Of a stretch of 64,000 bases of DNA, positions 1 through 56,375 are shown one piece after another; the first letter of the stretch is position 1, and every line of letters starts with the position of its first letter. The translations under genes and the position numbers were made by a program. This DNA is from Candidatus Yonathbacteria bacterium RIFCSPLOWO2_01_FULL_43_27 (lineage in GTDB: Bacteria > Patescibacteriota > Minisyncoccia > Phycocordibacterales > UBA1550): the NCBI GenBank assembly GCA_001823545.1, contig MHUV01000005.1, forward strand, positions 15,910-79,909. The letters run 5' to 3'. The notes under the pieces were generated by a model. That model saw only the letters and a list, made by a program, of their open reading frames with translations, was not told where the DNA came from and did no database searches.

Positions 1-773
1 CCAACGCCATTGAGAACTCTACTCTAACTCTCAAGGAAACCGAGAAAATTCTTTTGGATATGGAAGTCTCACGGGATGTTTCCTTGCGTGAAGTCTACGA
101 GGCCAAAAACTTGGCTCGTGTTATCGGGTACATTCGTAATAAGAGCAAGGAGACGGAAGCGAACAAAGAGACGATTCTACTTTTACACCAGATGCTTATT
201 GGTGGAATTGACGACAAGATTGCTGGCCGTTTTAGAAAGCTTGGTGAGTATGTTCGTGTTGGAACCCACATAGCCCCGGCACCGGAACATGTTGAACGAA
301 TGATTGAGGCGATTATTACTGAGTACACAGGTGATCTATCTAACTACTTTTTAGACAAGATTGCCAAATTCCATTTAGATTTTGAAACCATCCATCCATT
401 TAACGATGGCAACGGCCGTATTGGCCGTGTACTTATTTGCTTCCAACTGCAACGTCTCGGTCTTCCTATAATTATTATCCGTGATCGCGAGAAAAAAGAA
501 TACTACAAATCTTTTGCTGAATACCGTGACAAACATAATGCCAAGACGATGGAGAAAGTTATTGCCTTAGCATTAATGGAATCATTAAATAAACGAAACA
601 CATATCTCAAGGGCCAGAAGGTTATTACTCTGTCTGAATATACAAGAAATAACAACTTGTCTGCCTCAGGAATGACTAATGCTGCTCGTCGTCAAAACAT
701 TCCGGCTTTTCGAGAAAAAGGTGTTTGGAAAATTGGCGAGGATTTTATTTATAACTCTCACAAAGAAAAATAA
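1..773 (+). CDS. fic: Fic/Doc family protein (adenylyltransferase-like), 5'-partial (reading frame open to window start)
   Basis: The canonical Fic motif HPFxDGNGRxxR is present as HPFNDGNGRIGR. The N-terminal region reads ...NAIENSTLTLKETEKIL, and there is no in-frame stop upstream to position 1. Confidence 0.8.
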   Translation, partial: NAIENSTLTLKETEKILLDMEVSRDVSLREVYEAKNLARVIGYIRNKSKETEANKETILLLHQMLIGGIDDKIAGRFRKLGEYVRVGTHIAPAPEHVERMIEAIITEYTGDLSNYFLDKIAKFHLDFETIHPFNDGNGRIGRVLICFQLQRLGLPIIIIRDREKKEYYKSFAEYRDKHNAKTMEKVIALALMESLNKRNTYLKGQKVITLSEYTRNNNLSASGMTNAARRQNIPAFREKGVWKIGEDFIYNSHKEK

Positions 774-957
774 AAGCGGTATTTACCCCGGGGCAAGCCC
801 CGGACAAAATGTTGTTCACTTCGTTGTTATGGGTCTTTTTCCGCTGAAAAAGCCCGCTACCCCACCTCGCGCCGTAGCGCTCTGGTCTTGCGAAACTCCA
901 TGTATTCGCTTCTCACACATTTACCGTCCCAGAGGGGCGGGGTATTATACCCTTGTA

Positions 958-1023
958 TTAGCTCCTCGGCTCGGAAATAAGAAAGATTACTTTCTCACTT
1001 CGCTCGCTCTACGTCGCTAATAA
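958..1023 (-). promoter_or_regulatory. Leader-like conserved element, copy A (homologous to the lysS 5' leader); no downstream gene
   Basis: About 85% identical to 14771..14834. In minus orientation it contains a 12-bp hairpin followed by CCGAGCCGAGGAGCUAAU, but only a 14-codon ORF follows. Confidence 0.4.
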
Positions 1024-1036
1024 ATATAGACGATCA

Positions 1037-1066
1037 AAAAGCGCCCTTTGGGCGCTTTTTTGTTTT
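1037..1066. terminator. Bidirectional rho-independent terminator
   Basis: GCGCCC-TTT-GGGCGC hairpin flanked by A-run and T-run. Confidence 0.6.
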
Positions 1067-1068
1067 TA

Positions 1069-1628
1069 CTATTTTATCACCTCTTCCAGCAACTCAGGAA
1101 ATTTTTCGGTTTTCATATCGTTAAAACAGAAGTGACCGTAGTTTTGAAAATCTCGAACAACGATATTTTTTACTTTGTTTTTTATAATTTCTACACTCTT
1201 TTTCATTTCCTCATCATCGTCAGTAGAATTAAAAATTGTTATACCATTTGTTTTAGACACTACATTCTCGTCTATATTAAATTCAAACATCTGAGTATCC
1301 TCTGTTTTAAATGGGTTGATCCACGGTGCAACTAAAACTACCTACCCAACTTTTACATCATTTTCACTTAGGTAGCGGAGCAAGAAACCAGCCCCGCAAC
1401 TGTGACCAATGAGCTGAGTATCACTGTCAATAACAAACTGTTTAAAGACAGAACACCATTTGGCATAGTCGGGACTATACGGCTCGGGCATTTCTGGAGT
1501 TTGTGCAAGAACACCCTTCAGGATGAGCTGTTTTTGAATCCAAGGGATCCAATGCTTATTGGACGAAGATCAGGATTAAAGTACTCTTCCTTCGGCGGCA
1601 TACCGTGAATTATAATTGCTGTTTTCAT
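1069..1628 (-). pseudogene. YdeN/RBBP9-like alpha/beta serine hydrolase gene, disrupted by a frameshift and an in-frame TAG
   Basis: The minus-strand translation begins MKTAIIIHGMPPKEEYFNPDLRP, then shifts frame into NKHWIPWIQKQL...LIGHSCGAGFLLRYLSENDVKVG. An in-frame TAG at 1342-1344 follows, and the same frame then continues VVLVAPWINPF...MFEFNID.... The HWxPWL and GHSxG motifs are those of the YdeN family. The total span of 560 nt is not a multiple of 3. Confidence 0.6.
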
Positions 1629-1762
1629 ATAGATGATTTTAGCGGGAAATACGCAGTTTTGCTAGTAAGTTAATATTTAATCAAAAGCTCTTGACCCATC
1701 CTTCCGTTCGCGTGTGGATAAAACCCAGCTCGTAAAGACGAGAGGAGTGAGGGCGGGGCTCC

Positions 1763-4531
1763 CTAGTCAATATTCAATTTTTGCATTCGTTTTTTAAGTG
1801 CATCTCCGCCCCCCTCAAGAATACTCACAATATCATCTCTAATCTGTTTATATTCAATTCCACCGTTGTGATATTTGAGATTATTGTTTTCATTTTCCGC
1901 AACTATCACATTCTCAGAGTCGGTTAGTAGTAAAAGATTAGGACTATGGGTCGCCACTATCACTTGACGTCTTTCTTTCTGGTCTAATACAAGCTTTCTT
2001 AGGTCATTTGAAATTCCGGAGACATCGATATCATTTTCTGGCTGATCAATAATTATCGGATATACACTTTTTGACAGATTGAATATGAGATCCAAAAGTG
2101 CCATCGCTTTCTGTCCACCAGTCATATTTTCAAAATCTATCAATTCCTCGCCATTCTTATATTTAACAGATTTTGTGAAATCAATATCATACCTACAGCT
2201 CAACAATGTCAGCAATGCACTCTCCTTATCACCACCTGTGACCTTCAATTTTGCAGTAGATGCATCAATGACAATATCTTTAATAATTTGAACTATTTCA
2301 GATTTATCAAAATCCCTTTTTTCATCAAAAAACTTTTTGAAACGGTCCCCAGATCGTCCATCAATATACACATCAAAAAACCTACTCTTATATTCATCTA
2401 CACTGTAACTCACTGTAAAATGGAATGTTATGAAAGTAAAATTATCAAATGCATCTTTGAGAGTTTGAACTATTCCCTCAATTTTGCTCTTAAAAGATAG
2501 GTACAAATCGGCTACTTCGTCAATTACTACTTCTTCTTTTTGACCAAATTCTTTGACAAATTTATCCAGTTTTTCTATCTCTTTTTTCTCGGCACTAAGC
2601 TTGTTTATTTCCTTTAGTATTTTTTCAATGGTTTTATTTTGCTGTAATTTCTCTGTTATTGGAACTAACTCTTTTTCGACAGTAATTTTTCTATCTTTTT
2701 TATTTTTAGTCTTTGACGCCAAGTCATTTAGCAACTCACTTAAATACTCTTTGATTTCTTGACCAGAAAGTTTTTCAATATGCTTTTCAATTAACTCTAA
2801 GGTTATCTGAGATAATCCAAAGAACACTTCACTGTCAACTGTGATGAAATTTACATCACTACCGCTATTGATGTTCTTTATAATCTGGAAATCTTGCTCC
2901 AATAACTTAATTTCTTTGATAAGTGATTCTATTTCCGAAAAATATTTTGTTTGATTTTCAATATCCGCGTCGGTTATATCAATCTTTCCAATCTTATTAA
3001 TTTCTTCTTGTTTAATTTTTATTGCACTGTCTTTATCTTCAGATTTCCCAAGTGGTTTTAGCTGGCTAGTTGTATCTACAATCTGCCTATGTGTACTTAG
3101 TGCTTCTTTAACTTTTGCATTAATTTTTAGTTCTATCGAATCTACAGCATCAGTCTTGCTTGTATCGGCGTTTTTGAATAAATCATTATTGAACAACCGC
3201 GCCTTGAGCATTTCGTCTCGTTTATCATAGTCTCTACCATCTTCATAAGTGATAGTCGATAGATAGTTTTGTGGTATGAATTCAACAAATTTATTCTCAG
3301 AGGTATCGTCGTACCAATGAATTTTAAAATCTTGTAACTTAAATATCTTTTTAACGTCAGGTTGTTCTTGCTCGCCGAGCACATTAAAAGCAATATGTTT
3401 GAGTAAAACAGATTTTCCGGCACCCCGTTTACCAATAACAGAATTTATATCCTTGTTAAAATAAATTGTGTGAATTTTACTGTTTTGCTTATATTCCACT
3501 CTGTCGATAAAAAGTTCTGGAGATGAATTTTTGTTTTCTGAGGGGTTTCTTTCTTGTATTAAAACTCTGTTTGCATAATCTACAACTACTTGTCTTAGTG
3601 TCTCAAAAGTAGTATCTCCCTTAATCCATGTAAAACAATGCCCTAAATCTTTAGGATTGGTATTAAAAAAATCAAATTTTACAACACCCTCATCTCCTGT
3701 TTGTTTAATAGTATGTGCATCACTGCAATGTAATAAACGACTATTTGCTGATTGAGTGTTTAATGAATCTATATTTTTATTTGTTTGCTTTGCACTTGGT
3801 GAAGCAGAAAAAACAATATGAGCATTGTTGATTATGTCCTTTTTGTCTACAGGAGACCCTGTCCACCTAAAATCTTCCCATTCTGATTTTCCAATAGCTT
3901 TTATATATTTACCTCTTAGATATGTGTTTGGTTCCTTTATCTCACCTAGACATTCTTTGAGTTTATCGAGACTGTAGCTTAAATTATTAAAGCCTATTTC
4001 AAAGTGATTATCGCTCTCTCTTTTATCTTCTGGAGTAGTGTCATATACATGTTTACCAAGATCAATTAAACTTTCTCTTGTAACAACTCCGCCCCAAGTG
4101 GTGCTACCCACATTATTCACATCAAGGTTGCATGATGATCTAAAACAATTTAAAAACTGTGCTTCTATTGTTTCAATATCAAGAATGCTCTGTTCCGCAA
4201 AGATAACATGGTAGTTAATTTTTTTTAATTGCTCATTACCCACAAACTCCTTTAATCTAAATTCTACAACAGGCAAAATTAAATCTATATTTTTCAGTCT
4301 GTTCACATTTTTATATTCTATTACTTTTTTGTAACCATCCAGAAACAGATAATCGTTAATACCTATAACTTTTATATCTTTGGGCAAACTTTCTAATCCA
4401 TTAATGAAATTCTCCCATTTTTTTTCTTCTGTCGCACCGGGATACTCCGATGTATGAGAAAACGGCGTGTGAACATGCAAATCCCACTTTCTCCATTCAG
4501 ACCCTTTGTTGTATTTTTGATCCTCTTCCAT
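1763..4531 (-). CDS. PHP-domain phosphoesterase fused to Rad50/SbcC-like coiled-coil ABC ATPase (candidate defence nuclease-ATPase)
   Basis: The N-terminus carries the PHP motif WDLHVHTPFSHTS. A Walker A (GKRGAGKS) is followed by a long K/E-rich coiled-coil segment of roughly 300 aa. The C-terminus carries an ABC signature (MTGGQKAMALLDL), Walker B (IIIDQPENDID) and H-loop (VATHSP). The start at Met56 of the ORF lies 4 nt after the stop of the upstream gene. Confidence 0.7.
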   Translation of the reverse strand: MEEDQKYNKGSEWRKWDLHVHTPFSHTSEYPGATEEKKWENFINGLESLPKDIKVIGINDYLFLDGYKKVIEYKNVNRLKNIDLILPVVEFRLKEFVGNEQLKKINYHVIFAEQSILDIETIEAQFLNCFRSSCNLDVNNVGSTTWGGVVTRESLIDLGKHVYDTTPEDKRESDNHFEIGFNNLSYSLDKLKECLGEIKEPNTYLRGKYIKAIGKSEWEDFRWTGSPVDKKDIINNAHIVFSASPSAKQTNKNIDSLNTQSANSRLLHCSDAHTIKQTGDEGVVKFDFFNTNPKDLGHCFTWIKGDTTFETLRQVVVDYANRVLIQERNPSENKNSSPELFIDRVEYKQNSKIHTIYFNKDINSVIGKRGAGKSVLLKHIAFNVLGEQEQPDVKKIFKLQDFKIHWYDDTSENKFVEFIPQNYLSTITYEDGRDYDKRDEMLKARLFNNDLFKNADTSKTDAVDSIELKINAKVKEALSTHRQIVDTTSQLKPLGKSEDKDSAIKIKQEEINKIGKIDITDADIENQTKYFSEIESLIKEIKLLEQDFQIIKNINSGSDVNFITVDSEVFFGLSQITLELIEKHIEKLSGQEIKEYLSELLNDLASKTKNKKDRKITVEKELVPITEKLQQNKTIEKILKEINKLSAEKKEIEKLDKFVKEFGQKEEVVIDEVADLYLSFKSKIEGIVQTLKDAFDNFTFITFHFTVSYSVDEYKSRFFDVYIDGRSGDRFKKFFDEKRDFDKSEIVQIIKDIVIDASTAKLKVTGGDKESALLTLLSCRYDIDFTKSVKYKNGEELIDFENMTGGQKAMALLDLIFNLSKSVYPIIIDQPENDIDVSGISNDLRKLVLDQKERRQVIVATHSPNLLLLTDSENVIVAENENNNLKYHNGGIEYKQIRDDIVSILEGGGDALKKRMQKLNID

Positions 4532-4535
4532 AATT

Positions 4536-5618
4536 CTATTTTCCAGACTTAGTTCTGTTGTCTTGCTTGCACAACATTTTGCAGTTTGTCGCGATTGTTT
4601 TCCCTCCCTCATGCCAAGGCTTAATATGATCCGCTTCCATTTCCTCGATCTCAAAGCGCTTTTTACACTTAGAGCAAATGCCTTTCTGTCTCTCATATGC
4701 CTCGCGCTTCATTTTGTCATTAAAGGCGCGGATATTTAACGCTCTTTCACTCCCAGTCAAAACATATTCGTAGATGCCAGACTTTTTAGTTACATCCTCA
4801 TCTTGCATCAGCTTTGTTATTTCTTTTTCCAATTTCTTAGCATCAAATTCTTTACCTTTTACTTTGTTGTATAAAGTTCCAAAAGGCACGCCTTTCATTT
4901 CCTTGCGATAGTTAGGAAAAACCGCCTTGACCCAATTTATTACACTCTGAAAATAAAGCCATAATTCGTTGGCGTTAGGTTTGTGCTGATGGTCTGCCAT
5001 GTATTGTTCAATTTTTCCATCGCTTATCCAATCTATTGTAGTTTCTAGGTAGTCTTGGCGGATTGCTGAACCATTTAAATAATCACTTCCAATGTTATAA
5101 GCGGGACAGCCAGTTTTACTAAAGTGTCTTTTTGCATCAGTTAGCCAAGTGCCAGTATAAATAGCATTTCTCAATTCTTGATCTGTTAATTTTTCCCCAG
5201 CAATGTTTATCGTCTTAAACCAATCCAATTTTTCTTTATCATTTCCTTCGCAGAAGTAAATCATCAGCTTGTAATTAAGAATCTGCTCTTTTTCGGTTTC
5301 TTCAAGATTGTGAAAATATTGGAAATTTAAGGAGAATTTACCCGCTATATATTCGCAAATACTTATAGTTCTTTGCTGTCCATCCATCACTTCATAAGTT
5401 CCATCTTCACTTTCAACCCAATACATTACATTCAAAGGAAAATTCTTTCTGACAGTTTCGATGACGGCATCTCTTTGATGATCCTTATAAACGAATTCTC
5501 TTTGATATTTAGGGCGGATATTTAATTTTCCACCATACCCAACAACACCTTCCTCGTTGTCATTAACATATTTATTTGAAACTTCTTTAATTGTGATTTC
5601 TTTTAGTTTAATTTTCAT
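4536..5618 (-). CDS. DUF262 (ParB/GmrS-like NTPase, DGQQR motif) fused to C-terminal HNH endonuclease
   Basis: The DUF262 signature DGQQR is present as VMDGQQRTISICEY. The C-terminal HNH motif reads EADHIKPWHEGGKTIATNCKMLCKQDNRTK. The probable start MKIKLKEITIK has an AGGA upstream. Confidence 0.75.
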   Translation of the reverse strand: MKIKLKEITIKEVSNKYVNDNEEGVVGYGGKLNIRPKYQREFVYKDHQRDAVIETVRKNFPLNVMYWVESEDGTYEVMDGQQRTISICEYIAGKFSLNFQYFHNLEETEKEQILNYKLMIYFCEGNDKEKLDWFKTINIAGEKLTDQELRNAIYTGTWLTDAKRHFSKTGCPAYNIGSDYLNGSAIRQDYLETTIDWISDGKIEQYMADHQHKPNANELWLYFQSVINWVKAVFPNYRKEMKGVPFGTLYNKVKGKEFDAKKLEKEITKLMQDEDVTKKSGIYEYVLTGSERALNIRAFNDKMKREAYERQKGICSKCKKRFEIEEMEADHIKPWHEGGKTIATNCKMLCKQDNRTKSGK

Positions 5619-5622
5619 AAAT

Positions 5623-6723
5623 TTATATTTTCCTATTTCTAATAATGACTCGAGCATAAATGCTTGAATATAGTTCTCCTGTTTCAGTATCCTTAAACGC
5701 AGGCGTTTTATCTGTTAGTGGATTGTATAAACGATATAATGTGCCTTTTGCGTTAAACGTATATTTTCCAGTAGGTGCCCCACTTTTGTCCAAAATCTCC
5801 ATTTTTTTATTAGAAGCAAAATCAATTGATCCAATTATTCCTAAAGCAACTAATTCAAATTGATCAGGACTGTACTTGTCCAAAAAAGTAATAGGAACAC
5901 CAATAGCACCCTTATAATCCACAGGAATATCTTTTGTTACATCAACATTTATAGCATCATAATTTTTATATTTGGGATATTCATTTTCATGTCCGTGATA
6001 CTCTTTATAAAGTATCAAGTCGTCGTGGCGTTCTTTATAATCCAAATTTGTAAACCAACGAACACCCTTAACTCGAATAAATTTATTTCCATTTTCATCA
6101 ATTCTATTTCCAGCAGAATTCAGAGGGTAAGATTCTGGAACTCTAAATTCCCTATCCCCGCTATGTATGCTTTGACCAAGCCAAATTTTGTTCTCCTTGA
6201 TCAATTTGAAAGTTTCTTTATAAGTTATAGCGTTCAAATTGCCGATAATAATAAATTTCTTTTTGTATTCAAATAATTGAGCTAGATATTCTCTAAATAA
6301 TGAAAAAGGTGGATTCGTAACAACAATGTCCGCTTCTTTTAGAATTTCAACACACTCGGGACTTCTAAAATCACCATCCTGTTTTAGTGGGGTTTTGATT
6401 GTATCTAATTTATTTATTTTTCCATCTTTATTTGTGTCTTTTACAATTTCCAATTTATAAGGCGATTCTTTTGTAAGCAAATTTGCATCTTTGTAATGAG
6501 TAGAGATGAGCTTCTTTAGTCCAAGGAATTCAAAATTTAAAGCAAAGTAATTCCAAAAATTGCTTTCTTCTGGGTCATCGCAATTACAAAATATGACTTT
6601 ATTTTTTAAGTGATCTTTATAATTTTTTAATTCTTTTTCAATATCAGACAACTGTGTATAAAACTCGTCGCTTTTTGCTCGGTTTGCCGTCTTTAAGTTT
6701 GCATTTGAGGATTTCTTTTTCAT
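5623..6723 (-). CDS. N6-adenine DNA methyltransferase (NPPF catalytic motif; EcoRI-methylase-like N-terminal DEFYT motif)
   Basis: The catalytic tetrapeptide NPPF appears as VVTNPPFS, with KSDEFYTQL near the N-terminus. It is the first gene of the minus-strand operon, downstream of an AT-rich promoter region. Confidence 0.65.
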   Translation of the reverse strand: MKKKSSNANLKTANRAKSDEFYTQLSDIEKELKNYKDHLKNKVIFCNCDDPEESNFWNYFALNFEFLGLKKLISTHYKDANLLTKESPYKLEIVKDTNKDGKINKLDTIKTPLKQDGDFRSPECVEILKEADIVVTNPPFSLFREYLAQLFEYKKKFIIIGNLNAITYKETFKLIKENKIWLGQSIHSGDREFRVPESYPLNSAGNRIDENGNKFIRVKGVRWFTNLDYKERHDDLILYKEYHGHENEYPKYKNYDAINVDVTKDIPVDYKGAIGVPITFLDKYSPDQFELVALGIIGSIDFASNKKMEILDKSGAPTGKYTFNAKGTLYRLYNPLTDKTPAFKDTETGELYSSIYARVIIRNRKI

Positions 6724-7008
6724 AAAATTATTTCAAAAGTTCGCTACTGGAAATTCCTAAAGCTCCAGCGTTTTTTCAGCTACTTTTGACGATATATATC
6801 AGAGTAATACTCTTTATTATCCTTATTTTTACAATACTTTATCAAATTTAGTATTCTCATTTATGAGAGAGTTTAACACATTTTGTTACAGAAAACCACT
6901 TCAAAAAAAGGGCATAACCCCTTTCCCTACAATATCGACAATATACTAGAATAACAACAATTATGATCCTATTAAATTAAAAATTATTATAGTATAATTA
7001 AACATATT

Positions 7009-7545
7009 ATGAAAAAATTTCTAAGTGTTTTGGTACGAATATTGGTCACTATCATAATAGCTACTGGTGTTTGCTATCTCATATATTCATATAGTAGTAA
7101 TTGGCGATATCTTGATCAAAAGAATCTTGTTTTTACTGTTGAAGATGCGAAGGGCGGTGAAGCTTTTGATGTTGTTGTTACAAAAGATCAGTTTAGTAAA
7201 TTACCTAATGCAACGACAACGATAAATAAATTAAGAAAAGGCGTTTATTCGAAAAATTGGGGAAATGAGGATACTTTAGTTGTAAAAGCAGTTGACTGGT
7301 ATAACTGTGGAGCTGGTCAAATATGGGGAAGTTATAAAATCGAAGACGATAAAATAACCATATTTAGTGGTAAAAAAAGTTTTGGACTCAAATTAATAAA
7401 CGTAGCAGAGGCTTGTATATATAGCTATGTGATGACCTACGAAATTTCAAATCTTGAATATAAAGATTACCAGATAACATATGTTCGGGCGCCTTACAAG
7501 CGAGGCTTTTTTGATTCCTTCATACCACAACCACGCTCCTTGTAA
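7009..7545 (+). CDS. Hypothetical membrane-anchored protein (N-terminal TM helix)
   Basis: A 178-aa ORF with a hydrophobic N-terminus (LVRILVTIIIATGVCYLIY). It is transcribed divergently from the methyltransferase operon and is AT-rich. Confidence 0.45.
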   Translation: MKKFLSVLVRILVTIIIATGVCYLIYSYSSNWRYLDQKNLVFTVEDAKGGEAFDVVVTKDQFSKLPNATTTINKLRKGVYSKNWGNEDTLVVKAVDWYNCGAGQIWGSYKIEDDKITIFSGKKSFGLKLINVAEACIYSYVMTYEISNLEYKDYQITYVRAPYKRGFFDSFIPQPRSL

Positions 7546-7587
7546 TTAAAGATGGGAGTTGTTCATATTAAAAACGAACAAGGAACA

Positions 7588-7744
7588 TTGACTCGCTTCG
7601 CTCGCCTCACTTTGTGTGGTCACAAATCACTAACCTACGGGGAAGCTCGCGATGTTCGCGGATCGGTCACAGATATTTTTCTGCTGAAAATAAATATATT
7701 GACTCGCTCCGCTCGCCTCACTTTGCGTGGTCACAAATCACTAA
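7588..7744. repeat. Two 46-nt direct repeats (7588..7633 and 7699..7744) plus hairpin motifs of the form TTTTTCnnnnGAAAAA
   Basis: TTGACTCGCTTCGCTCGCCTCACTTTGTGTGGTCACAAATCACTAA is repeated with 2 mismatches. Related short motifs recur at 829-853 and 7805-7825. Confidence 0.6.
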
Positions 7745-7847
7745 GTATAATTTTTCGCTGCGCTCAAATTCTACGTAAGTGTTTGCCGACCCCGGCTCGG
7801 CAATTTTTCTTCTGAAAAATTATGCCTGCGCCTTCACAAAAGCGAAA

Positions 7848-7872
7848 AAGACTGGAGCAGTCCAGTCTTTTT
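7848..7872. terminator. Rho-independent terminator (bidirectional)
   Basis: AAGACTGGA-GCAG-TCCAGTCTT hairpin followed by TTTTT. Confidence 0.6.
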
Positions 7873-7887
7873 ACTCTCACGCTTTTG

Positions 7888-7959
7888 TGACCCTACGGGG
7901 AATCGAACCCCGGTTTAAAGCTTGAAAAGCTTCTGTCCTAACCGTTAGACGATAGGGCC
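7888..7959 (-). tRNA. trnE: tRNA-Glu (anticodon UUC)
   Basis: The cloverleaf has acceptor GGCCCTA/TAGGGTC, anticodon stem GAAGC/GCTTT, loop TTTTCAA, T-arm CGGGG-TTCGATT-CCCCG and discriminator A. CCA is not encoded. Confidence 0.8.
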
Positions 7960-8067
7960 ATCCTTATATAAAACATAACAACAAGCCATTGAACAATATG
8001 ACTGTTTTATGCTCTTAAATAACTTTTGCAGTATACCAATTTTTGCCAAAAATGCAAAAATGATGTC

Positions 8068-12787: not shown

Positions 12788-13003
12788 GAAGATATTCTTA
12801 GTGAGTGAAGCGAGGAATGACCACCACCACAGCCCTAGTTTTGAATTATCGAAATTTCAATCACTCAAAACTAGAGCTGGATGGAAATTTAAACAGTCGC
12901 TTACGCTCTTTTTAAATTATCCACTTCATCCCACTTATCTACTATTTTATAGCACTTCACCCCACTCTGCAAGAAAAGTTATCCACACATCTACACAAAA
13001 AAA

Positions 13004-13054: not shown

Positions 13055-13210
13055 TTACTCCTCCTCGCCGACAAGGGCAAAGGGAGTATCATCGAAAAAG
13101 AGCTTGCGAACATCTTTCCTGTTCATGGCATGGGGGCGCTCAGCCAGAGGCTTCGTTTTTTCCCTGTTCAGTTTGTTCAGGTTCATTGTAATCTCTCCTT
13201 TCGTCGCCAT
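13055..13210 (-). CDS. Hypothetical small protein (51 aa) between lysS and the terminator
   Basis: GGAGGAGCGTGCAATG gives an RBS ahead of MATKGEITMNLNKLNREKTKPLAERPHAMNRKDVRKLFFDDTPFALVGEEE, and the terminator follows directly. Confidence 0.3.
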   Translation of the reverse strand: MATKGEITMNLNKLNREKTKPLAERPHAMNRKDVRKLFFDDTPFALVGEEE

Positions 13211-13290
13211 TGCACGCTCCTCCTTTTTTTAGAGTTACTAGTTGAACTGCAAAAATCTGAAAAAAATTATAGCACACTCACAGAAAATTA

Positions 13291-14769
13291 CTATCCTTGT
13301 TTTGGGCGCACAAGGGGGAATGCTTGTGTGTCGCGAAGTGGCTTATCAGAAAGAAAAGCAAACAATCGGTCACCAAAACCAAAGCCACACGTTGGAGGCA
13401 TTCCGTGTTCAAGCATTTCGACAAAATCCCAATCAGCCATCATTGCTTCTTTGTCTCCTTTTGCTAAAAGTTCCTGCTGAACTTCAAAACGCTTTCTCTG
13501 ATCGAGAGGATCATTGAGCTCGCTGTACCCCTTTCCTAACTCACTACCCGCAAGAATAGGTTGAAAGACTTGCGCCGTCGTGCCATCAATATTCTTTTTT
13601 GCAAGCGGTGCAACAAGGAGTGGATGATTTACCAAAAATGCGGGGCCAGCAATATTTTTTCGGCAGTACTTCCACAACGTATCGGTCAAACGTTCACGAT
13701 TATTGCCATCGTATTTTACTTTGAGCTCGGCGAGTTTATTCTTGATGTCATCATCAGATGCCGTAGCAAGATCAATGCCCGTTTGTCGCAATACCTCTTC
13801 TCGGTAATCAACTTTCCGCCATTCATCCGCAAGATCAAATGTATGTCCACGCGTCGTAAATGTTGTAGTGCCAAAAACCTCACGCGCAATCGTGCGATAG
13901 AGCTCTTGTACAAGCTTCATACCATCATCATAGTTTGCGTACGCCATATAAAATTCACAGTTTGTAAATTCTTGCATATGCTCAGGCGAAGAACCTTCAT
14001 TGCGATACACGCGACCAACTTCAAATGTTTTAGGAAACCCAGCGGACATCAATCGCTTTTGCCAAAGTTCACCAACAGAAATACGCATAAATACATCGAG
14101 ATCAAAGTCATTATGATGCGTCATAAACGGACGTGCCTCAGCACCACCGGTGGTAACCTCGAGCGTTGGTGTTTCAACTTCCAAGAAACCTTTCTCAATC
14201 AAAAAGGTTCGAATGGTTTGCCAAAATTTTGCCTTGCGTTCAAACATCTCACGAAGTTCTGGGCTCGTGAGAATATCGAGGTAGCGCAAACGAAGACGGA
14301 GTTCTTCGTCCTGAAGACCATGATATTTATCAGGAAGTGGGAGAAGTGCTTTTGAAAGCATCGATACGTCCCGTCCAAGAATACTTTTTTGTCCTGTTTT
14401 AGTAGCAAAGAGTATACCGCGTACTTCAATAAAATCTCCGATATCAACAAACCGTTCATAAAAATCACGAACAGATTCTGGTGTCTCGGGAAGCTTGATG
14501 ACGACTTGGAGTTTTGCGGTACCATCAAAGAGATCTGCAAAGATGAGTGCGCCTTGTCCACGTGACGCCATCACGCGTCCTGCCACGACTACTTCTTCTT
14601 CACGAGAAGCACGTGCATCAAAATCGTCTAAAATATCACGGATGAAATGAGTTTTTTGAGAAGTTGCTGGATACGCCGAAACACCCTCAGAGATGAGATC
14701 GTTTAATTTCTTCAAGCGCTCAGCGCGAATTTCTTCAAGAGAAGCCATGTGAGAATATACGAAATCCAT
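13291..14769 (-). CDS. lysS: Lysyl-tRNA synthetase (class II)
   Basis: Class II motifs are present, for example FEVGRVYRNEGSSPEHMQEFTNCEFYMAY, along with an anticodon-binding OB N-terminus. Confidence 0.9.
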   Translation of the reverse strand: MDFVYSHMASLEEIRAERLKKLNDLISEGVSAYPATSQKTHFIRDILDDFDARASREEEVVVAGRVMASRGQGALIFADLFDGTAKLQVVIKLPETPESVRDFYERFVDIGDFIEVRGILFATKTGQKSILGRDVSMLSKALLPLPDKYHGLQDEELRLRLRYLDILTSPELREMFERKAKFWQTIRTFLIEKGFLEVETPTLEVTTGGAEARPFMTHHNDFDLDVFMRISVGELWQKRLMSAGFPKTFEVGRVYRNEGSSPEHMQEFTNCEFYMAYANYDDGMKLVQELYRTIAREVFGTTTFTTRGHTFDLADEWRKVDYREEVLRQTGIDLATASDDDIKNKLAELKVKYDGNNRERLTDTLWKYCRKNIAGPAFLVNHPLLVAPLAKKNIDGTTAQVFQPILAGSELGKGYSELNDPLDQRKRFEVQQELLAKGDKEAMMADWDFVEMLEHGMPPTCGFGFGDRLFAFLSDKPLRDTQAFPLVRPKQG

Positions 14770-14770
14770 A

Positions 14771-14834
14771 TTAGCTCCTCGGCTCGGAAATGGAAAGAGT
14801 ACTTTTCATTTCACTCGCTCTACGTCGCTAATAA
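14771..14834 (-). promoter_or_regulatory. lysS 5' leader element, copy B: hairpin plus GGAGG RBS
   Basis: In minus orientation it reads UUAUUAGCGACGUAGAGCGAG-[GAAAUGAAAAG/CUCUUUCCAUUUC hairpin]-CGAGCCGAGGAGCUAAU-AUG(lysS). Confidence 0.5.
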
Positions 14835-14863
14835 TGGGCGCACTGACCCTAAAACGTGATGAA

Positions 14864-15367
14864 TTATTTTACATCCACCACCACACACGAAACCATACCA
14901 TTTGGCGTCTCACAAGATACCTTGTCACCTTTTTCTTTACCAATGAGTGCTGCACCGAGAGGTGACTTATTTGAGATTTTTCCTTCGCGTGTATTTGCCT
15001 CCTCTGAGCCTACAATGCGATACACATGTTCTTTTTTATCGCTACCCTTTTGGATCGTGACGGTCGAACCAATCCCAACAACACCATTCTTGTGTTTACT
15101 GGTAATTTCAACACTTTTAAGGAGCGTTTCAAGCTTCAAAATACGCTCTTCTGTTTCTGCCTGATTTTGGCGTGCCTCGTGATATTCAGCATTTTCTGAA
15201 AGATCACCAAGACCCTTTGCGAACTCGAGCTGTTCTGCAATCTCCTTACGGCGTACGCTTTTTAAGTGATTAAGCTCTTTCTCAAGCTCATTAAATTTTT
15301 CTTGGCTCAAATATTCTTTTTCGTTTGACATAATGACTATAGTATTCGTTTTTGGGTCAAAAGTCAA
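14864..15367 (-). CDS. greA: Transcription elongation factor GreA
   Basis: An N-terminal coiled-coil (YLSQEKFNELEKELNHLK, DLSENAEYHEARQ) is followed by a C-terminal FKBP-like domain. Confidence 0.85.
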   Translation of the reverse strand: MTFDPKTNTIVIMSNEKEYLSQEKFNELEKELNHLKSVRRKEIAEQLEFAKGLGDLSENAEYHEARQNQAETEERILKLETLLKSVEITSKHKNGVVGIGSTVTIQKGSDKKEHVYRIVGSEEANTREGKISNKSPLGAALIGKEKGDKVSCETPNGMVSCVVVDVK

Positions 15368-56146: not shown

Positions 56147-56215
56147 ATATTATACTACATATCGCCCCAGAAAACGCAACATATGATTAATCTTACGAGG
56201 TAGTATTCTTCTAAT

Positions 56216-56267
56216 TTCTAGTATCGACGTATAATATACTATAGTATATTATACGTCGATACTAGAA
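56216..56267. repeat. Perfect 52-bp palindrome (26 + 26) with imperfect extension to about 56199..56282
   Basis: TTCTAGTATCGACGTATAATATACTA | TAGTATATTATACGTCGATACTAGAA; the flanks GTAGTATTCTTC / GAAGAAAAAATACTAC extend the symmetry. Confidence 0.9.
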
Positions 56268-56375
56268 GAAAAAATACTACATGAGCTAGTTAAATGTTTA
56301 AATTGATCTGCTCTCTCAGTATGATATACAGATATTCCACAAGGTGGGAATCTGGTTCGCAAAAGTTTTCTTGTG

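What the first reader, a model, noticed from the sequence alone, without database searches (positions are those of the whole stretch)
958..1023. Orphan copy of the lysS leader element with a covarying hairpin
The segments 958..1023 and 14771..14834 are about 85% identical. In minus orientation each forms UUAUUAGCGACGUAGAGCGAG, then an 11-12-bp hairpin, then CCGAGCCGAGGAGCUAAU. The two hairpins differ by compensatory changes (GAAGUGAGAAAG/CUUUCUUAUUUC versus GAAAUGAAAAG/CUCUUUCCAUUUC), which argues for a conserved RNA structure ahead of an RBS. Copy B drives lysS, whereas copy A is followed only by a 14-codon ORF (MEFRKTRALRREVG) and points antisense into the Fic gene. Copy A could be a relic promoter or leader left by island insertion, or a riboregulator producing an antisense transcript.
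Basis: seen in the sequence. Interest (0 to 1): 0.55.

Follow-up and report, generated by a model that had tools for sequence, protein, structure and literature searches.

The report
Mobile structured repeat of Patescibacteria
The two look-alike segments are not a lysS control element. They are two copies of a small hairpin-shaped mobile repeat, apparently undescribed, that is scattered between genes in many ultra-small (Patescibacteria/CPR) bacteria, and one copy was inserted in front of lysS only recently.

Summary
Copies at 956..1022(-) and 14769..14833(-) share exact 21-nt and 18-nt arms around a variable hairpin.

The element is not lysS-specific. An exact-core scan found at least 120 stretches, about 109 of them in Patescibacteria genomes of many candidate phyla. 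It lies between genes in every orientation and several times per genome.

Across 82 copies both helices covary strongly: 92% of cells are paired, and 272 double changes compare with 69 in shuffles. A 24-nt GA-rich internal-loop core stays fixed. It reads as three tandem G·A pairs and fits the kink-turn sequence pattern. No Rfam family matches.

Four close relatives (88-95% LysS identity) have a 31-40-nt greA-lysS spacer without the element. The window carries a 76-nt insertion flanked by TATT. The real lysS start is the second ATG.

Copy A is not an orphan. It is a ~255-nt mosaic composite (769..1026) ending at the Fic stop codon, and the "14-codon ORF" lies in a nested non-coding module.

Best reading: a non-autonomous mobile element that acts as a folded single strand. 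Its mobilising enzyme is unknown. No transposase is linked to it, and one Y1/RAYT clade was tested and excluded. An RNA-level function is not excluded.

The parts
956..1022 (-). Copy A, module 1. P1 5' arm 1022-1016 (UAUUAGC). 5' core 1015-1002 (GACGUAGAGCGAG + 1 nt). P2 hairpin 1001-974 (12 bp, loop UAAU). 3' core 973-963 (its leading C is the last P2 base at 974). P1 3' arm 962-956 (GCUAAUA).
   Evidence: 88.5 bits, E 1e-28
1019..1024 (-). 5' flanking direct repeat TTTATT of copy A. It overlaps the P1 5' arm.
   Evidence: the same TTTAY motif is seen at 5' flank and 3' end in many copies
769..955 (-). Copy A, downstream domain (module 2 plus nested modules). It opens with ACAAGGGUAUAAUACC and a CCGCCCC/GGGACGG hairpin. 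Nested module Y is at 884-836. A GC-rich hairpin lies at 805-786. The domain closes with ACCGCUUUUAUU, and the 3' repeat TTTTATT (775-769) overlaps the Fic stop codon TAA (771-773 on +).
   Evidence: (-97.9 kcal/mol, z -4.9). L085 has the same ends but lacks about 100 nt of the interior. Modules X and Y recur in L001/L116 and L089/L095.
14769..14833 (-). Copy B, module 1. P1 5' arm 14833-14827. 5' core 14826-14813. P2 hairpin 14812-14787 (11 bp with one A.C mismatch, loop UACU). 3' core 14786-14776. P1 3' arm 14775-14769.
   Evidence: 76.4 bits, E 3e-24
14754..14829 (-). The 76-nt insertion that is absent from close relatives (AGCGAC...GCUAAUAUGGAUUUCGUA + TATT). It is module 1 plus a minimal module-2 hairpin (AUAUG-gauuu-CGUAU). 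TATT is present at both junctions (14833-14830 and 14757-14754) and only once in the empty sites.
   Evidence: alignments A4 and A7. L124, an independent assembly of the same strain, carries it. L125, L121, L122 and L123 do not.
14767..14769 (-). Upstream in-frame ATG created by the insertion. It is the start of the mechanical 492-aa ORF.
13291..14748 (-). lysS (485 aa) starting at the second ATG, MASLEEIRAE...
   Evidence: this exact product is on record; homologues about 485 aa
14864..15367 (-). greA, the gene upstream of copy B.
   Evidence: GreA_GreB and GreA_GreB_N
54..773 (+). Fic-domain gene, convergent with copy A. Its stop codon lies in the terminal repeat of the composite.
1036..1060 (.). 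Terminator-like hairpin (AAAAAGCGCCC...GGGCGCTTTTT) immediately upstream of copy A on the minus strand.

Best explanation
The two segments are members of a family of small, non-autonomous, structured mobile elements of Patescibacteria (Parcubacteria group and Doudnabacteria).

Anatomy (shown). The basic unit is about 75 nt. A short T-rich flank (TTTAY or TATT) comes first. Module 1 follows: helix P1, a fixed GA-rich internal-loop core (GACGUAGAGCGAG / CCGAGCCGAGGAG), and a variable A/U-rich hairpin P2 with a purine-rich 5' arm. Module 2 comes last. It is a second hairpin of very variable length whose 5' arm overlaps the P1 3' arm and whose 3' arm ends in the same TTTAY/TATT motif. Larger copies such as copy A are mosaics that hold extra nested modules.

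Mobility (shown). Copy B entered the 40-nt greA-lysS spacer after the split from relatives that are 95% identical in LysS. TATT now lies at both junctions. Copy A sits between convergent genes.

Mechanism (inferred). The element is recognised as a folded single strand of one defined polarity, most likely single-stranded DNA during replication. It would be mobilised in trans by an enzyme encoded elsewhere, either an HUH-type (IS200/IS605/REP-like) enzyme or a recombinase acting on a folded site. The internal segment AAUA... can pair with both the 5' target motif and the 3' end. Effects on neighbouring genes are by-products. In copy B these are a strong Shine-Dalgarno-like GAGGAG and an in-frame ATG 21 nt ahead of the lysS start.
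For: - Distribution: at least 120 exact-core stretches, about 109 in Patescibacteria MAGs of many candidate phyla and several per genome, e.g. UBA2135.
- Structure: 91.8% of cells paired against 77% in shuffles and 34-52% in slid controls. There are 272 double-change cells against 68.7 in shuffles (0 of 500 shuffles reach it). P2 is 96.6% paired. RNAalifold independently predicts the same helices.
- Core conservation: extra copies found by the model, without any exact-core requirement, mostly carry 0-1 changes in the 24-nt core while their stems differ freely.
- Mobility: four relatives show empty sites with a clean 76-nt difference and TATT at both junctions.
- Recent duplication: identical module-1 copies sit at different loci of one genome with different downstream parts (L042/L047 and L008/L054).
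- Mosaicism: nested modules are shared between genomes. Tandem copies occur (L101, L106).
- A variant family forms a tandem array in relative L122 exactly where the window has an unoccupied site.
- Not a gene-specific leader: flank orientations are 27/23/21/15. Between co-directional genes the element is sense in 24 cases and antisense in 19. The 150 nearest ORFs fall into 140 different Pfam families.
- Strand-specific folding: in P2, G.U outnumbers A.C by 31 to 11 (my tally of the pair-type counts). The 5' arm is purine-rich.
- Orientation: the element strand is the G-rich strand in 34 of 50 loci with clear skew (p 0.015) and the majority coding strand in 48 of 73 (p 0.01). Both window copies follow this.
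- No Rfam family matches at E up to 10.
Against: - No transposase or recombinase is linked to the element. ORF clustering around 107 copies gave only housekeeping families.
- The two neighbouring Y1/RAYT-like genes carry their own, different hairpins. In 350 kb around 80 relatives of that Y1 clade the element appears at only 2 distinct loci.
- An invariant 24-nt core spread over several candidate phyla is unusual for a purely selfish repeat, which normally diverges between genera.
- Folded with DNA parameters the A/T-rich hairpin is weak: -8.5 kcal/mol, z -1.6, against z -5.5 as RNA. This favours an RNA form.
- The core fits the kink-turn sequence pattern, which is an RNA protein-binding motif.
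- Only one clean filled/empty pair exists for the main family.
- The orientation bias cannot separate replication from transcription, because skew and coding strand correlate at r 0.74.
- Core invariance in the main set is partly forced by the exact-match search pattern.
Confidence: 0.6

Rival explanations
1. The element is a host-useful structured RNA module. The GA-rich core would fold as a kink-turn or tandem sheared G.A platform bound by an L7Ae-family or other RNA-binding protein. It would serve transcript stability, processing, termination or translation, and its mobility would only be the way the module spreads (a domesticated repeat).
For: - The core follows the simple kink-turn pattern, judged from my own knowledge of that motif. 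There is a C-G pair, a 3-nt bulge GUA, then G.A and A.G, with two more tandem GA/AG steps.
- The RNA fold is far more significant than the DNA fold (z -5.5 against -1.6).
- G.U outnumbers A.C 31 to 11 in P2.
- The core is conserved across candidate phyla while the stems covary.
- Copy B lies on the coding strand inside the closely spaced greA-lysS gene pair, so it would be transcribed with any greA-lysS read-through.
Against: - 19 of 43 copies between co-directional genes are antisense to both genes. Overall orientation relative to neighbours is near random.
- No promoter-like motif recurs in the 25 nt printed upstream of the copies.
- The element is absent from the same locus in close relatives, so it is not needed there.
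- No recurrent neighbouring gene was found.
Confidence: 0.22
2. The elements are REPs in the strict sense, or IS200/IS605-derived palindrome-associated elements, mobilised by a cognate Y1 (HUH) transposase or RAYT encoded once per genome.
For: - GTAG lies in the invariant 5' core, and the element is strand-asymmetric.
- The ends of the inserted unit are not inverted repeats. Hairpins lie near both ends, and the same short motif sits at the 5' flank and the 3' end.
- The orientation bias runs towards the G-rich strand, which is the lagging-strand template.
- Y1_Tnp genes do occur in these genomes, 2 among the 150 nearest neighbours.
Against: - The Y1 genes found are flanked by different hairpins.
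- Loci of 80 relatives of that Y1 clade are not enriched for the element.
- GTAG is 7 nt from the stem rather than adjacent to it.
- Copy number is low: 2 per 64 kb here and 2 per 350 kb in the Y1 sample.
- REPs are normally restricted to a species or genus, whereas this core spans candidate phyla.
- The 5' and 3' hairpins are unlike each other.
Confidence: 0.12
3. One reading: a leader or riboregulator of lysS (copy B), with an orphan or relic copy (copy A) that gives an antisense transcript into Fic.
For: Copy B lies directly upstream of lysS on the coding strand and contains GGAG followed by an ATG.
Against: - The element is absent upstream of lysS in four relatives at 88-95% LysS identity.
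- The true start is 21 nt downstream.
- More than 100 other copies lie next to unrelated genes in all orientations.
- No lysine riboswitch or T-box match was found.
- Copy A ends at the Fic stop codon and overlaps no other part of that gene.
Confidence: 0.02
4. Module 1 is an undescribed small self-cleaving ribozyme, or another catalytic or ligand-binding RNA, carried by a mobile element. Hammerhead and twister motifs in repeats would be the analogy.
For: - The architecture is two covarying helices around a strictly conserved set of about 24 unpaired or non-canonical nucleotides.
- It is multi-copy and mobile, and it is absent from Rfam.
Against: - The conserved loops are explained more simply by tandem G.A pairs in a continuous irregular helix.
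- No pseudoknot or junction is evident.
- The orientation data argue against obligatory transcription.
- Nothing was tested biochemically.
Confidence: 0.05

Closest known systems
REP / BIME / REPIN elements with RAYT (E. coli, Pseudomonas, Stenotrophomonas SMAG)
   Same: Both are short, structured, strand-asymmetric intergenic repeats. Both contain a GTAG motif, are non-autonomous and assemble into mosaic composites. Structure is maintained across copies in both.
   Different: - No RAYT is linked; one Y1 clade was tested and showed no association.
- The hairpin is A/U-rich and carries a large invariant GA-rich internal loop instead of being a GC-rich palindrome.
- GTAG is not adjacent to the stem.
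- Copy number is low.
- The same core spans many candidate phyla rather than one genus.
IS200/IS605-derived palindrome-associated transposable elements (single-strand, HUH transposition)
   Same: - The inserted unit has no terminal inverted repeats.
- Hairpins lie near both ends.
- A short specific motif sits at the 5' flank and is repeated at the 3' end.
- An internal segment can base-pair with both of those motifs.
- There is a moderate bias towards the lagging-strand template.
   Different: No TnpA or TnpB partner was found. The left and right hairpins are unrelated to each other. The pairing segment lies 3' of the first hairpin rather than 5' of each hairpin foot.
Modular MITE-like repeats that act when co-transcribed (Neisseria Correia, pneumococcal BOX, enterobacterial ERIC)
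   Same: Both are modular and mosaic in build, lie between genes, and can donate ribosome-binding sites or start codons or alter transcripts.
   Different: Correia elements have 26-bp terminal inverted repeats and a TA duplication. BOX and ERIC are limited to narrow taxa. None has this GA-rich core.
Kink-turn RNA motifs (Kt-7, box C/D; L7Ae-family binding sites)
   Same: The sequence pattern agrees: a C-G pair, a 3-nt bulge, then tandem G.A and A.G pairs.
   Different: The canonical stem is a single pair followed by another tandem GA step. A third GA/AG step follows. Neither the geometry nor a protein partner was tested.
Integron attC sites
   Same: Both are recognised by fold rather than sequence and have a variable central part. 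Both show a direct-repeat / inverted-complement / direct-repeat layout at unit ends, and both occur as tandem units.
   Different: There are no RYYYAAC/GTTRRRY boxes, no integrase and no gene cargo.
TIGR-Tas stem-loop arrays / box C/D-like guide RNAs of CPR bacteria (PMC12045711)
   Same: Both occur in CPR bacteria. Both are hairpin units with conserved short motifs and linkers, and both can be tandem.
   Different: Here the unpaired parts are invariant and the variable parts are base-paired, so no spacers are available as guides. Most copies are solitary, and units in arrays are identical. No Nop-domain gene recurs nearby.

Membership tests
lysS cis-regulatory leader (lysine riboswitch, T-box or other) | Match to a curated leader or riboswitch model | tested here: not met
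   Rfam at gathering threshold on the whole window gave only 2 tRNAs. At E up to 10 on 14600-15000 there was nothing relevant.
lysS cis-regulatory leader (lysine riboswitch, T-box or other) | Conserved position upstream of lysS in related genomes | tested here: not met
   Relatives at 95, 94, 91 and 88% LysS identity have 31-40-nt greA-lysS spacers without the element. The covariance model finds no main-family copy in L121-L123.
REP / RAYT system | Imperfect palindrome with a GTAG end | tested here: inconclusive
   GTAG is invariant in the 5' core but lies 7 nt from the P2 stem. The palindrome is interrupted by large internal loops.
REP / RAYT system | Cognate Y1 (RAYT) gene flanked by the repeats | tested here: not met
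   The two neighbouring Y1 genes have other hairpins at their flanks. Eighty loci of that Y1 clade (350 kb) hold the element at 2 distinct loci only, not flanking the gene. Other Y1 clades were not tested.
REP / RAYT system | Very high copy number and genus-level restriction | tested here: not met
   There are 2 copies in 64 kb and 2 in 350 kb. The same core appears in Yonath-, Kaiser-, Nomura-, Zambryski-, Taylor-, Komeili-, Buchanan- and Doudnabacteria.
IS200/IS605-type single-strand element (PATE) | No terminal inverted repeats; hairpins near both ends; one active strand | tested here: met
   The inserted unit runs AGCGAC... to ...CGTATATT. It has the P2 and module-2 hairpins. G.U outnumbers A.C 31 to 11 in P2.
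IS200/IS605-type single-strand element (PATE) | Insertion 3' of a short specific target, without duplication | tested here: inconclusive
   TATT lies at both junctions of copy B and once in the empty sites. This fits either a 4-bp duplication or a target plus an identical element end.
IS200/IS605-type single-strand element (PATE) | Orientation bias towards the lagging-strand template | tested here: inconclusive
   The counts are 53:34 overall and 34:16 where skew is clear. The signal is confounded with coding strand at r 0.74.
IS200/IS605-type single-strand element (PATE) | TnpA (Y1) that binds and cleaves the element's hairpins | not testable with these tools
   This needs whole-genome co-occurrence analysis and biochemistry.
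Classical DDE-type MITE | Terminal inverted repeats at the ends of the mobile unit and a fixed-length target duplication | tested here: not met
   Only module 1 has 7-nt inverted arms. The 76-nt unit that actually inserted has unlike ends. The flanking repeats are 4 nt here and 9-11 nt in the variant array of L122.
Kink-turn RNA | Canonical pair, 3-nt bulge, tandem G.A/A.G | tested here: met
   The core reads C-G, GUA, then G.A and A.G in every copy. This is a sequence-level check only, and the consensus comes from my own knowledge.
Kink-turn RNA | Kinked geometry and L7Ae-family binding | not testable with these tools
   This needs a structure or a binding assay.
TIGR / box C/D-like guide arrays | Variable unpaired spacers between conserved box motifs; array next to a Nop-domain gene | tested here: not met
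   The unpaired parts are invariant and the variable parts are paired. Copies are mostly solitary. No recurrent neighbour family was found. The family is described in PMC12045711.
Known self-cleaving ribozymes and other Rfam families | Match to a covariance model | tested here: not met
   No such match at E up to 10 around either copy. None at gathering score in 18 loci with elements.
Integron attC | R''/R' boxes RYYYAAC ... GTTRRRY | tested here: not met
   The ends read (A)ATAT... and ...ATATT or TTTAY, with no GTT core.

The most novel reading that the evidence does not exclude
The invariant 24-nt GA-rich core flanked by two covarying helices could be a new functional nucleic-acid module shared across the Parcubacteria radiation. 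One possibility is a kink-turn-type RNA platform or a new ribozyme that the cells use. The other is the recognition and guide structure of a new kind of minimal mobile element. In that case an internal segment would pair with both its target motif and its own 3' end, so targeting would be built into the element, and mobilisation would depend on an enzyme family not yet connected with transposition.
Probability: 0.15. Interest if true: 0.8.

Novelty: new variant of a known kind. Interest (0 to 1): 0.6.

Why it matters
Patescibacteria have tiny, streamlined genomes and almost no experimentally described non-coding or mobile DNA. A structured element that keeps an identical 24-nt core across many candidate phyla, is still moving between close relatives, and is absent from Rfam would be useful in three ways:
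- It is a marker of genome dynamics in this group.
- It is a source of annotation errors. Here it adds a false 7-codon extension to lysS.
- It gives a defined substrate for finding the protein that recognises it, whether transposase, recombinase or RNA-binding protein.

If the core proves to be an RNA kink-turn platform or a self-guided mobile unit, it would add a new class to the short list of bacterial interspersed structured repeats.

Tried and rejected
- Rfam searches gave nothing but tRNAs and chance terminator-like hits: whole window at gathering score, both regions at E up to 10, and 18 related loci.
- The weaker covariance-model hits in the window (49108, 34861, 56214, 62984 and others) are coding sequence or unrelated palindromes.
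- A promoter scan around copy A gave no more sites than shuffles. No promoter-like motif recurs in the 25 nt printed upstream of the copies.
- TIGR-Tas or box C/D-like guides: I read the paper and rejected the idea, because the unpaired parts are invariant and the copies are solitary.
- Search for a linked transposase: ORF clustering and Pfam on the 150 nearest ORFs gave housekeeping genes. The two Y1_Tnp neighbours have other hairpins. A metagenome scan for that Y1 clade showed no enrichment.
- Search for an autonomous long form, with the P1 partner far downstream: none found.
- Viral contigs: 5 hits, all chance matches in GC-rich coding DNA.
- Look-up of the Fic protein, to find an empty site for copy A: not on record with the ATG start I tried.
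- Literature searches for CPR repeats, MITEs or RNA motifs found no description of this element. Absence from that library does not prove novelty.

Full report
**1. The observation**

- The 21-nt arm TTATTAGCGACGTAGAGCGAG and the 18-nt arm CCGAGCCGAGGAGCTAAT each occur exactly twice in 64 kb, on the minus strand. Shuffles give essentially zero expected matches.
- On the minus strand each copy folds into an outer 7-bp helix (P1, UAUUAGC/GCUAAUA), GA-rich internal loops and an inner 11-12-bp hairpin (P2). The RNA energies are -26.7 and -20.9 kcal/mol (z -5.5 and -4.4).
- Between the two copies alone, the P2 differences are mostly one-sided (G.U to A-U or G-C) plus one base pair of length. Copy B has an A.C mismatch. 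The 'compensatory' claim is therefore weak for this pair by itself.

**2. It is a widespread family, not a lysS element**

- About 109 of these are in Patescibacteria MAGs: Yonath-, Kaiser-, Nomura-, Zambryski-, Taylor-, Komeili-, Buchanan- and Doudnabacteria, plus many bins with generic labels. The other 11 are chance matches inside GC-rich coding DNA.
- Several genomes have multiple copies.
- Rfam 15 has no matching family, at gathering score or at E up to 10. Four literature searches found no description.
- LysS homologues place the window near Candidatus Yonathbacteria.

**3. Structure**

I aligned 82 copies (A2) and counted pairs for the proposed structure.
- 91.8% of cells are paired, against 77% in shuffles and 34-52% when partners are slid.
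- 272 cells have changes on both sides, against 68.7 in shuffles (0 of 500 shuffles reach the observed value).
- P2 is 96.6% paired, and 11 of its 12 variable pairs show double changes. P1 also covaries (UUAG/CUAA, CUGG/CCAG, CGAG/CUCG, UAAG/CUUA and others).
- RNAalifold predicts the same helices on its own.

The core GACGUAGAGCGAG / CCGAGCCGAGGAG is invariant in this set partly by construction. However, additional copies found by the covariance model, which needs no exact core, mostly carry 0-1 core changes while their stems differ freely.

The core can be read as a continuous irregular helix with three tandem G.A/A.G steps. Its middle part (C-G pair, bulge GUA, then G.A and A.G) fits the simple kink-turn pattern. 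That comparison rests on my own knowledge of the motif and is untested.

Variant families share the GAGCGAG/CGAGC theme with other P1 sequences and cores. One example is AGCGAGUGAGC ... GAGCGAGCGC in L122 and L117.

**4. Full anatomy**

Most copies continue beyond module 1. The P1 3' arm runs into a second hairpin domain (module 2), for example AAUAUAGGU...ACCUAUAUU. Its length ranges from about 18 to more than 200 nt, it often holds GC-rich hairpins, and it ends in TTTAT(T) or, in GC-richer lineages, TTTAC(N). The same motif immediately precedes module 1. The layout is therefore repeat / module 1 / complement of the repeat / loop / repeat.

- **Copy A** has this full form and spans about 769..1026 on the minus strand (fold -97.9 kcal/mol, z -4.9).
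  - Its closest relative, L085, has the same ends but lacks about 100 nt of the interior.
  - The extra interior consists of modules that recur next to elements in other genomes. Module X (916-885) is in L001 and L116. Module Y (884-836) is in L089 and L095.
  - The composite starts right after a terminator-like hairpin (1036-1060). Its terminal TTTTATT (775-769) overlaps the Fic stop codon.
- **Copy B** has a minimal module 2, AUAUG-gauuu-CGUAU-AUU.

**5. Mobility**

- LysS homologues are about 485 aa against the 492-aa mechanical ORF. The 485-aa product from the second ATG is the one on record, in an independent assembly of the same strain that also carries the element (L124).
- Contigs of relatives at 95% (L125), 94% (L121), 91% (L122) and 88% (L123) LysS identity keep the folD-greA-lysS-mraZ order. 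Their greA-lysS spacers are only 31-40 nt and hold no element.
- The alignment shows one clean 76-nt difference. TATT is present once in the empty sites and at both junctions in the window. Copy B is therefore a recent insertion, and its first ATG (14769) lies inside the inserted DNA.
- In the reverse direction, L122 carries a tandem array of a variant family in the lysS-mraZ spacer. At that exact position the window reads GTTATCCACACATC with no array (about 12977-12990).
- Identical module-1 copies with different downstream parts occur within single genomes (L042/L047 and L008/L054). Tandem and chimeric units also exist (L101, L106).

**6. Context and strand**

- Orientation relative to the two flanking ORFs is close to random: 27/23/21/15. 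Between co-directional genes it is 24 sense and 19 antisense.
- The 150 nearest ORFs fall into 140 Pfam families. This rules out a dedicated leader.
- The fold is strand-specific. In P2, G.U outnumbers A.C by 31 to 11 (my tally of the pair-type counts), and the 5' arm is purine-rich.
- The element strand is the G-rich strand in 53 of 87 loci, and in 34 of 50 with clear skew (p 0.015). It is the majority coding strand in 48 of 73 loci (p 0.01).
- Both window copies lie on the G-rich strand, which also carries most of the genes.
- Skew and coding strand are correlated (r 0.74), so replication and transcription cannot be separated here.

**7. Search for a partner**

- No protein family recurs next to the element beyond housekeeping genes.
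- Two neighbours are Y1/RAYT-like transposases, but each is flanked by its own different hairpins.
- In 350 kb around 80 relatives of that clade, the model finds the element at only two distinct loci.
- No copy was found in viral contigs, and no long autonomous form was seen.

**8. Interpretation**

The evidence fits a non-autonomous mobile element that is recognised as a folded single strand and inserts at T-rich TATT/TTTAY sites between genes.
- Shown: the family, the covarying structure, the invariant core, the insertion polymorphism, the mosaic build, and the lack of gene specificity.
- Inferred: the single-strand DNA route and a trans-acting HUH-type enzyme or recombinase.
- The main rival is an RNA-level role, a kink-turn-type protein platform. 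It gains from the much stronger RNA than DNA fold statistics and from the phylum-wide core. It is weakened by the many copies that lie antisense to their neighbours.

**9. Verdict**

This is a real element that I could not find described in Rfam 15 or in the searched papers. It is best filed as a new variant of the known class of bacterial interspersed structured repeats (REP, PATE or MITE-like), with an unusual GA-rich core and an unknown mobiliser. Interest is moderate to high (0.6). The lysS-regulator idea should be dropped, and the 492-aa lysS ORF should be read as 485 aa.

Noticed in passing
window 7550-7885 (minus strand, just downstream of tRNA 7888-7959): An intergenic stretch built of repeat modules related to the element superfamily. 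It contains a 47-nt direct repeat (7587-7633 and 7698-7744, 96% identical) with GGCGAGCGAAGCGAG, small A/T hairpins and a CCGAGCCGGGG motif. Pieces of 22-26 nt recur next to elements in L042, L089 and L100.
   Followed up: partly
window 12977-12990, compared with L122:2340-3235: The close relative L122 has a tandem array of identical units of a variant family in the lysS-mraZ spacer (at least two complete units read, beside an assembly-masked stretch). The units have P1 TATCCACA/TGTGGATA, cores AGCGAGUGAGC and GAGCGAGCGC, and linker TTGTACCCAGTTATA. The window has the unoccupied site GTTATCCACACATC. The 9-11-nt repeat at the array ends equals the P1 5' arm.
   Followed up: partly
window 1-8000: A low-GC block (34-36% against about 44% elsewhere) lies next to a tRNA gene and has defence-type content. 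It holds a Fic gene, a 977-aa protein with weak SMC_N and AAA_21 matches, a GmrSD_N + HNH nuclease and an EcoRI-type adenine methyltransferase. Two short ORFs (1069-1290 and 1342-1491) have no Pfam match; their sequences suggest to me fragments of one broken gene (not tested).
   Followed up: partly
window 56214-56268: A near-perfect 55-nt palindrome, CTAGTATCGACGTATAATATACTATAGTATATTATACGTCGATACTAG, in an intergenic region. It is unrelated to the element apart from a shared CGACGTA.
   Followed up: no
L041:4300-5110 and L021:6990-7900: Y1/RAYT-like transposase genes of Patescibacteria (HUH motif MPNHFHLL, then YIHxNP) are flanked by their own hairpin repeats. L041 has GAACCAGCAAGGCGACGCCTTGCTGGTT on both sides. 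L021 has GCGTCAAGGTGAGTCCTTGACC several times, including once inside the gene. At least 486 relatives were found in metagenomes.
   Followed up: partly
window 13056-13211 (minus strand): A small 51-codon ORF (MATKGEITMNLNKLN...) directly after lysS is called as a gene in the same-strain assembly L124. Relatives have different small ORFs or repeat arrays in this spacer.
   Followed up: no
L042:3422-3721; L117:1332-2375: In two other genomes the element or its variants also lie within a few hundred bases of tRNA genes. The window's variant repeats at 7550-7885 do the same. A possible preference for tRNA-flanking regions was not tested.
   Followed up: no
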